Source: the human T2T-CHM13v2.0 reference genome, Homo sapiens. Taken from it: a stretch of DNA of 64,000 bases. The stretch's first letter is position 1; the number at the start of each line of letters is the position of its first letter. Below the pieces are notes generated by a model. It made no database searches, was not told the DNA's origin, and saw only the letters and a list, made by a program, of their open reading frames with translations. Shown here in pieces: positions 30,206-31,481 of this stretch. Made by a program: the position numbers and the translations under genes. The DNA lies in NCBI RefSeq assembly GCF_009914755.1, contig NC_060932.1; one strand, 5' to 3'.

Positions 30206-31481
30206 ATTACTCTATCCAACTATCGCTCATTAGGGGAAAATTCATGTTTTGCCTGTTGAATTAAATATGTTTTGACTGCTCTAGCTTCCTTACATTTTCC
30301 ATTTCTGTTGTGCTTATGAGCTATTGCACCCATTTCTGTGGTTAACCACATTGTTACTTAACTACTTTCTGGGTTATGGATTGTCTTTCTAACTATATTG
30401 TTGGCTTTTTTCTACTACTTCTCCCAAATATTTAATTTATAGTAAATGTATGCATCATAAGAATTTAACTGAGTACTTGTTGGGTGAATAAAGGCATACA
30501 AAATAGCATGGTCTACAGAACTGTGAAATAATTTTTGTTTTGTACACAAAGCAGGCTGAACCTTTCCATGATTTCTAAGCTTTACAAAAGAAAAATAGGC
30601 AAAGAACTCAAAGAAGGTTAAAGATCTACTAACGTACATGGAACTACAATCTCTATAGTCAGTTATGTGAGTTGATGGATCTTCTTTTAGGTGTAAGCCA
30701 AACTGATTTGGATTTTTTATTTGTAACGTAAGAGTCCCAAGTTATCTGTGTAGTTGCAAATGTGATCTGTGTAAAATGAGCTCTTGAATTGTACAAATTT
30801 ATGTGACTCCATTCAATTCAGGCAAGAATAAGAAAGATGTAGTTAAAATGAATGGCATTTCCTTGTTTAATTGATTGATTGCTTTCTTTCTTATAAAGAT
30901 TATAAATTTGAGGTTCTTCAATGAAGGGATCTTTTTCATGTTGGCTACTATTGGCTAAGTAATGAAGATTATTTATTAAACTCATAGAGTTTATACACAT
31001 TCTCAATTTGATGTTTTCATCATTAAAACCAAGATTATATTTGCTTAATATTTAGCAGAGTCCACTGTCAATGAAAAAAGTACATCGATTAATTCCAAAG
31101 GCCATGGAGGGAGGAGCCAAGATGGCCGAATAGGAACAGCTCCAGTCTACAGCTCCCAGCGTGAGCGACGCAGAAGACGGGTGATTTCTGCATTTCCATC
31201 TGAGCTTTGAAGAGAGCAGTGGTTCTCCCAGCACGCGGCTGGAGATCTGAGAACGGGCAGACTGCCTCTTCAAGTGGGTCCCTGACCCCCGAGCAGCCTA
31301 ACTGGGAGGCACCCCCCAGCAGGGGCACACTGACACCTCACACGGCAGGATATTCCAACAGACCTGCAGCTGAGGGTCCTGTCTGTTAGAAGGAAAACTA
31401 ACAAACAGAAAGGACAACCACACCAAAAACCCATCTGTACATCACCATCATCAAAGACCAAAAGTAGATAAAACCACAAAG

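What the first reader, a model, noticed from the sequence alone, without database searches (positions are those of the whole stretch)
31106..31260. Young L1 retrotransposed from a spliced RNA (SpIRE 97/622): 5' UTR intron precisely removed
Seen: the 5' UTR is only ~375 nt, and CATTTCCATCTGAG joins directly to CTTTGAAGAGAGCAG at 31204/31205. Established: in unspliced L1 the left side continues GTACCGGG (donor ~+98) and the right side is preceded by CTGACAG (acceptor ~+621). The ~0.5 kb loss is therefore an exact GT-AG intron, the SpIRE class. Inference: the antisense promoter, ORF0, most of the CpG island and the SOX sites are gone while the YY1 site (AAGATGGCC) remains, so this copy is promoter-crippled despite a young, near-intact body. 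This is a known but rare class, easily mis-annotated as a deletion.
Basis: partly seen in the sequence, partly recalled or inferred. Interest (0 to 1): 0.8.

Follow-up and report, generated by a model that had tools for sequence, protein, structure and literature searches.

The report
Known spliced L1 copy (SpIRE97/622-70)

Summary
At window 31204/31205, CATTTCCATCTGAG joins CTTTGAAGAGAGCAG directly. In 15 of 15 unspliced L1 copies of the same genome, the left side continues with GT and the right side is preceded by AG. The interval between them is 524 nt in 6 of the 7 nearest relatives.

The element runs from 31107 to 36634. It has 14-nt target-site duplications, a poly(A) tail and an intact 338-aa ORF1. 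ORF2 is in frame but carries one premature stop.

A 34-mer across the junction occurs at 133 places in the genome and at 0 in the reversed control, so this is a recurrent splice product, not a chance deletion.

The locus is listed as SpIRE(97/622)-70 in Larson et al. 2018 (PMC5860796, S1 Data and S1 Table): L1PA2, hg38 chr8:68362348, in C8orf34, same orientation, TSD 14, "5' 20 untemplated". That paper also measured the promoter defect of this class.

New here: on a tree, this copy is sister to an unspliced L1 and nested among unspliced copies. Its splicing was therefore a private event, and I found no daughters.

Verdict: confirmed, already known, low interest.

The parts
31073..31086 (+). 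5' target-site duplication GAAAAAAGTACATC (14 nt)
   Evidence: It is identical to 36635-36648. Larson S1 Table gives TSD 14 and EN site TTTC/A.
31087..31106 (+). About 20 extra bases between the TSD and the L1 start, of unknown origin
   Evidence: Larson S1 Table records '5' 20 untemplated'. The 23-mer 31087-31109 is unique in the window. In the genome it has only one other match, 21 of 23 on C18, and that match is not next to an L1.
31107..31204 (+). L1 5'UTR upstream of the splice donor ('exon 1'); holds AAGATGGCC at 31119-31127
   Evidence: It aligns to the first ~97 nt of unspliced L1 copies at 94-100% identity.
31204..31205 (+). Splice junction (donor ~97 joined to acceptor ~622, L1.3 numbering as used by Larson et al.)
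   Evidence: Fifteen of 15 unspliced copies have GT...AG at the edges of the missing interval.
31205..31481 (+). Rest of the 5'UTR ('exon 2'); one private 7-nt loss after 31282 in a short CCCTGAC repeat
31482..32498 (+). ORF1, intact, 338 aa
   Evidence: Pfam finds the L1 trimerisation, RBD-like and dsRBD-like domains.
32499..32561 (+). 63-nt inter-ORF spacer
   Evidence: Coordinates. The length matches the 63-bp spacer named in Larson et al., Introduction passage.
32562..36389 (+). ORF2 frame of 1275 codons, with a single premature stop at 35253-35255 (codon 898)
   Evidence: Pfam finds the endonuclease and RVT_1 domains upstream of the stop. None of 13 compared copies has the stop.
36390..36634 (+). 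3'UTR, AATAAA at 36592-36597, and a poly(A) tract of about 40 nt with two G interruptions
36635..36648 (+). 3' target-site duplication GAAAAAAGTACATC

Best explanation
An L1PA2 source element was transcribed from its own 5' end. The spliceosome removed the 524-nt interval between the donor at about +98 (GT) and the acceptor at about +621 (AG) inside the 5'UTR. The spliced mRNA was then reverse-transcribed into intron 1 of C8orf34 by ordinary target-primed reverse transcription: a nick at TTTC/A, a 14-nt duplication and a poly(A) tail. About 20 bases of unknown origin were added at the 5' join.

The inserted copy keeps the first ~97 nt of the promoter, including the YY1-type motif. It lacks most of the CpG island, the internal transcription-factor sites, the antisense ORF and, from recalled positions, the antisense promoter. 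It is therefore a poor promoter and left no detectable offspring. It later acquired one premature stop in ORF2.

Shown here: the junction, the GT...AG edges, the insertion hallmarks, recurrence of the junction, the catalogue entry, and nesting among unspliced relatives. Taken from the literature: the promoter and retrotransposition defects, which were measured on an L1.3-based construct and not on this copy.
For: - Junction and coordinates.
- GT...AG edges: 15 of 15 unspliced copies; interval of 524 nt in 6 of the 7 nearest relatives.
- TSDs, poly(A), ORFs.
- Recurrence: the same junction 34-mer occurs at 133 places against 0 in the control. At least 40 loci carry the whole 395-nt spliced 5'UTR. 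Among the 14 junction-bearing extracts examined (two pairs are the same locus fetched twice), the 400-nt 5' flanks are unrelated, apart from one segmental-duplication trio and two weak matches of 73-77% identity.
- Catalogue: Larson et al. 2018, S1 Data (filled and empty site; identical to the window over the roughly 430 nt shown) and S1 Table row SpIRE(97/622)-70.
- Independent origin: on an ML tree of 16 bodies of about 5.4 kb, the window is sister to unspliced L021 (support 98/95). That pair is nested in a clade with three more unspliced copies (99/96). In 0 of 200 bootstrap trees are the spliced copies one clade. The window shares 19 of its 54 variant columns with L021, and at most 6 with any other spliced copy.
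- Functional consequence: Larson sections read.
- Lost content.
Against: - No ape orthologue could be examined, so a full-length insertion followed by a deletion at exactly these bases is not formally excluded for this one locus.
- The two-base AG microhomology would also suit a microhomology-mediated deletion.
- Only 28 of 14,363 first-look candidates were scored and 40 of 915. A closer spliced relative could therefore have been missed.
- The origin of the ~20 extra 5' bases is unexplained.
- The promoter defect was not measured on this copy.
Confidence: 0.95

Rival explanations
1. A full-length L1PA2 inserted here, and a later genomic deletion, helped by the 2-nt AG microhomology, removed 524 nt of the 5'UTR.
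For: The breakpoint is ambiguous over two bases (AG|...AG|). Unrelated internal 5'UTR deletions do occur: locus L013 lacks about 275 nt at other breakpoints.
Against: The same breakpoints recur at 133 places in the genome against 0 in the control, at loci with unrelated flanks. They coincide with a GT donor and a pyrimidine-rich ...CAG acceptor in 15 of 15 unspliced copies. Recurrent deletion at one pair of bases is far less likely than splicing.
Confidence: 0.02
2. This copy is a daughter of another, unseen SpIRE. That parent would have been transcribed from an outside promoter, as in the RAP1GDS1 case, and the ~20 extra 5' bases would be a short 5' transduction or a piece of a host exon.
For: There are 20-23 extra bases between the TSD and the L1 start. 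The route exists: SpIRE-35 in RAP1GDS1 gave daughters on chr1 and chr10 (bioRxiv 10.1101/2025.02.02.635956, passages).
Against: The 23-mer has no second exact copy in the genome. Its only near match (21 of 23, about 0.2 expected by chance by my own estimate) is not next to an L1. The nearest relatives are unspliced and the window is nested among them with starred support. The best other spliced 5'UTR is only 96% identical.
Confidence: 0.03

Closest known systems
SpIRE97/622 class (Larson et al. 2018, PLoS Biol, PMC5860796), entry SpIRE(97/622)-70
   Same: It is the same locus. The flanks, TSD, 5' extra bases and junction sequence in S1 Data match the window over the roughly 430 nt shown. The table row gives PA2, C8orf34, same orientation, TTTC/A, TSD 14.
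   Different: Nothing differs structurally. Added here:
- the state of the ORFs;
- the content of the lost interval in the nearest relatives;
- placement as sister to an unspliced copy;
- the count of the junction in the T2T assembly (133 places at up to 2 mismatches, against 116 by BLAT in hg38). The methods differ, so the two counts are not directly comparable.
SpIRE(97/622)-35 in RAP1GDS1 and its chimeric daughters (bioRxiv 10.1101/2025.02.02.635956)
   Same: It is also an L1PA2 SpIRE97/622 lying in an intron in the same orientation as its host gene.
   Different: That copy was re-mobilised through the host promoter, by splicing into a cryptic acceptor 15 nt upstream of the L1. The window's copy shows no daughters in this genome.
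SpIRE97/790, 97/853 and 97/976 classes
   Same: They use the same donor (G98U99) and arise by the same mechanism (Larson sections read).
   Different: They use other acceptors. The window's junction uses the +621 acceptor.

Membership tests
SpIRE97/622 | L1 (L1PA1-L1PA6) that keeps the true 5' end of the 5'UTR | tested here: met
   The first ~97 nt align from about position 1-5 of unspliced copies at 94-100% identity.
SpIRE97/622 | The missing interval starts at the donor G98U99 and ends at the acceptor A620G621 (GT...AG) | tested here: met
   Fifteen of 15 unspliced copies have GT right after CATCTGAG and AG right before CTTTGAAG. L1.3 itself was not aligned; the numbering is taken from Larson et al..
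SpIRE97/622 | Loss of about 524 nt | tested here: met
   The interval is 524 nt in 6 of the 7 nearest relatives and 513 nt in one.
SpIRE97/622 | Hallmarks of target-primed reverse transcription: TSDs, poly(A), EN-type nick site | tested here: met
   14-nt TSDs at 31073-31086 and 36635-36648, a poly(A) tract of about 40 nt, and a bottom-strand TTTC/A site. This agrees with Larson S1 Table.
SpIRE97/622 | Listed in the published catalogue | tested here: met
   S1 Data 'Clone 70' and the S1 Table row.
SpIRE97/622 | Reduced promoter activity and reduced further retrotransposition | not testable with these tools
   Measured by Larson et al. on an L1.3-derived construct. For this copy there is only indirect support: no daughters were found.
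SpIRE97/622 | No unspliced allele or orthologue at the same site, i.e. not a later deletion | not testable with these tools
   No ape or other human assembly is on hand.
L1PA2 subfamily | Subfamily-diagnostic sequence states | tested here: inconclusive
   The assignment 'PA2' is Larson's. Here:
- the ~130-nt 5'UTR segment seen in 2 of 8 random unspliced copies (L014, L015) is absent. Larson et al. say it was lost between L1PA3 and L1PA2;
- the nearest relatives are 98.1-98.8% identical.
No subfamily reference sequence was available for a direct test.

The most novel reading that the evidence does not exclude
The ~20 'untemplated' bases at the 5' join may be the trace of a transcript that began outside an L1, either in a parent's flank or in a host exon. 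In that case SpIRE-70 would be a second-generation copy of a lost or polymorphic SpIRE parent, mobilised through a borrowed promoter. That would be a second example of the RAP1GDS1 route.
Probability: 0.03. Interest if true: 0.35.

Novelty: already known. Interest (0 to 1): 0.08.

Why it matters
It matters little beyond correct annotation. The element should be labelled as a SpIRE, not as a full-length L1 or an L1 with a deletion. It should not be counted among potentially active L1s, because its promoter is truncated and ORF2 is interrupted.

The tree result adds a small point. This copy came from its own splicing event in an otherwise unspliced L1PA2 lineage. That fits the published view that 97/622 splicing recurs and that the products are usually dead ends.

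Because the copy lies in sense orientation in C8orf34 intron 1, it could still appear in host-driven transcripts.

Tried and rejected
- 5' transduction. I searched the genome for the 23-mer 31087-31109 at up to 2 mismatches and the window at up to 3. The only result was one 21-of-23 match on C18, not adjoining an L1. I treat it as chance, since about 0.2 such matches are expected by my own estimate. No source was found.
- Daughter or parent search. The full body and the spliced 5'UTR were searched against the genome, and no spliced copy is closer than the unspliced ones. Both searches scored only part of the candidates (28 of 14,363 and 40 of 915).
- Multiple alignment. MAFFT of the whole 5'UTR with unspliced copies misplaced the window's first ~100 nt next to the acceptor. 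The edges were therefore read from BLAST coordinates and anchors instead.
- Host-exon identity. A 37-aa peptide from the chr1 chimeric copy found nothing in the PDB sequences. The gene name therefore rests on Larson's table and on the 2025 preprint.
- Ape orthologues could not be examined with the tools on hand.

Full report
**Observation.** The window reads ...GATTTCTGCATTTCCATCTGAG|CTTTGAAGAGAGCAGTGG... with the join between 31204 and 31205.

The L1 begins at 31107-31109 (GGGAGGAGCCAAGATGG) and ORF1's ATG is at 31482. The 5'UTR is therefore 373-375 nt long, against about 900 nt in unspliced copies. The motif AAGATGGCC sits at 31119-31127.

**Gap ends.** I drew unspliced L1 copies from the same genome in two ways:
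- eight loci found with the donor motif (that motif occurs 1,875 times);
- the seven nearest full-length relatives for which both edges could be placed.

In all 15, the base pair following ...CATCTGAG is GT and the pair preceding CTTTGAAG... is AG, after a pyrimidine-rich run (TCCCTGTCTGACAG in 13 of the 15). The interval is 524 nt in 6 of the 7 nearest relatives and 513 nt in one. In the other eight it is 520-526 nt, except for one copy of 249 nt that has a different, unrelated deletion.

The loss is thus an exact GT...AG intron of the size reported for SpIRE97/622 (524 nt; Larson et al. 2018, section read). One caveat applies. Exon and intron both end in AG, so the breakpoint is formally ambiguous over two bases.

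**Not chance, not a one-off deletion.** A 34-mer spanning the junction is found at 133 places in the genome at up to two mismatches: 48 exact, 30 with one mismatch, the rest with two. One hundred places were listed and 33 were not. The reversed control gave 0.

The whole 395-nt spliced 5'UTR is matched end to end at 40 scored loci, one of them the window itself (40 of 915 candidates were scored), at 92-96% identity for the other 39.

Among the 14 junction-bearing extracts whose 400-nt 5' flanks I compared, the flanks are unrelated apart from three things. Two pairs are the same locus fetched twice. One trio on chromosome 1 comes from a segmental duplication. Two matches are weak, at 73-77% identity.

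**Anatomy of the element.**
- 14-nt target-site duplications GAAAAAAGTACATC lie at 31073-31086 and 36635-36648.
- AATAAA is at 36592-36597, followed by a poly(A) tract of about 40 nt.
- The bottom-strand nick site reads TTTC/A.
- ORF1 (31482-32498) is open for 338 aa and carries the three L1 ORF1 domains.
- The spacer is 63 nt.
- ORF2 (32562-36389) keeps its frame for 1,275 codons but has one premature stop at codon 898. This lies after the endonuclease and reverse-transcriptase domains.
- None of 13 compared copies has that stop.
- About 20 bases (31087-31106) separate the 5' TSD from the L1.

**It is already in print.** Larson et al. 2018 (PLoS Biol 16:e2003067, PMC5860796) searched hg38 with a junction probe and found 116 SpIRE97/622 copies, about 1.8% of annotated full-length L1PA1-L1PA6 (section read).

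Their S1 Data entry 'Clone 70; PA2; SpIRE(97/622)-70, chr8:68362348-68368033' prints an empty and a filled site. These match the window's flanks, TSD, extra bases and spliced 5'UTR over the roughly 430 nt shown. The S1 Table row reads: PA2, chr8, 5500 bp, C8orf34, Same, TTTC/A, TSD 14, no transduction, '5' 20 untemplated'.

I read the sections named above, the passages, part 1 of S1 Table, and passages of S1 Data. I did not read the whole paper.

**What the splice removed.** In 7 of 7 nearest unspliced relatives, the interval holds 21-27 CpGs, against 4-6 before it and 3-5 after it. It also holds a 71-aa antisense ORF lying wholly inside it. The size matches ORF0 as I recall it from Denli et al. 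2015, a paper I did not read.

The window's 5'UTR keeps 10 CpGs. The positions of the antisense promoter and of the SOX sites inside the interval are recalled, not tested.

Larson et al. state that five transcription-factor sites are lost. The spliced 5'UTR drives luciferase about 7-fold over the empty vector, against about 267-fold for the wild type. An L1 relying on it retrotransposes at about 7% of wild type. These measurements were made on L1.3-based constructs, not on this copy.

**Is it a primary splice product or a copy of another SpIRE?** Searching the genome with the body alone (31205-36590) gave 27 other hits at 98-99% identity, with 28 of 14,363 candidates scored. I fetched eight of them. 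Seven carry the intron; for the eighth, L033, no 5' part was found.

Six other L1PA2 SpIREs from Larson's list were compared with the body, and all are less similar: five are 97.5-98.0% identical, and the sixth (L027) matched only in pieces of 95.1-97.0%. The unspliced copies are 98.1-98.8% identical. L027 was left out of the variant count and the tree.

The window differs from the commonest state of 13 compared copies at 54 alignment columns, 7 of which are one 7-nt loss. Of these, 28 are private. Nineteen are shared with unspliced L021, 10-12 with three further unspliced copies, and at most 6 with any spliced copy.

An ML tree of 16 bodies puts the window as sister to L021 (support 98/95), inside a clade with three more unspliced copies (99/96). 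The spliced copies form one clade in 0 of 200 bootstrap trees. Starred branches force at least three changes of the spliced/unspliced state.

As a positive control, the known parent-daughter trio (see below) groups together, with support 83/74 for the trio and 98/94 within it. Since an intron cannot be regained, the window's splicing was its own event. No daughters were seen.

**The 5' extra bases.** The 23-mer 31087-31109 occurs once in the window. In the genome it occurs once more, with two mismatches, on C18, where it is not next to an L1. No transduction source is visible in this assembly, which agrees with Larson's 'untemplated'.

**Age.** The end branch is 0.0054 changes per site. At the 0.17%/Myr rate quoted in the methods of bioRxiv 10.1101/2025.02.02.635956, that is roughly 3 Myr since separation from the lineage of L021. 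This is a rough figure that CpG decay would inflate. Whether apes share the insertion could not be tested.

**Seen on the way.** Two other catalogued L1PA2 SpIREs are not independent splice events: Larson's -6 on chr1 (present three times through segmental duplication) and -79 on chr10. Both are retrocopies of a host-gene transcript in which two upstream chr4 exons are spliced to an acceptor-like site (TTTTCAG) 15 nt upstream of SpIRE-35. The transcript runs through that L1 and about 100-115 nt of its 3' flank before a new poly(A) tail.

This is already described as the RAP1GDS1/L1PA2 promoter co-option case in the 2025 preprint (passages read).

**Verdict.** The observation and the interpretation are both correct. 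The element is SpIRE(97/622)-70 and nothing about it departs from the published class. It is already known and of low interest.

Noticed in passing
L035 (G000:C1:205590500-205598500, minus strand), L043 (G000:C10:45362300-45370300, minus strand), L036 (G000:C4:101634000-101642500): The SpIRE97/622 copies on chr1 and chr10 are retrocopies of a chimeric transcript. The chr1 copy is present three times through segmental duplication, at about 121.3, 144.1 and 205.6 Mb. The transcript joins two upstream chr4 exons (matches at C4:101576429-101576528 and C4:101608361-101608469) to a site 15 nt upstream of the intronic chr4 SpIRE. It continues through about 100-115 nt of that L1's 3' flank and ends in its own poly(A) and its own TSDs. 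The two copies differ in 5' end and in poly(A) site, so they are two separate events. This is already published as the RAP1GDS1/L1PA2 promoter co-option case (bioRxiv 10.1101/2025.02.02.635956).
   Followed up: yes
Larson et al. 2018 S1 Table rows SpIRE(97/622)-6 and -79, compared with L035 and L043: The table gives TSDs of 14 and 16 nt and 'no transduction' for these two copies. From, those repeats appear to be the chr4 parent's own TSD carried inside the chimeric transcript. The true duplications lie further out: in an A-rich Alu tail on chr1, and GAAAGTCTGTTT on chr10. If so, the count of 116 includes at least two copies that are not independent splicing events. I did not see whether the 2025 preprint says this.
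   Followed up: partly
L020 (G000:C18:52297977-52300999), around 1501-1523: This is the only near match (21 of 23) in the genome to the window's extra 5' bases. It lies in non-L1 sequence and is probably chance.
   Followed up: partly
window 31282/31283: A 7-nt loss in a short CCCTGAC tandem repeat of the 5'UTR is private among the 14 aligned bodies. It is also seen in one unrelated unspliced copy, L014, so this looks like recurrent slippage.
   Followed up: no
window 31073-36648, relative to C8orf34: The SpIRE lies in intron 1 of C8orf34 in the same orientation as the gene (hub annotation; Larson S1 Table). This is the arrangement that allowed the RAP1GDS1 copy to be re-mobilised. No daughter copies were found for this one.
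   Followed up: partly
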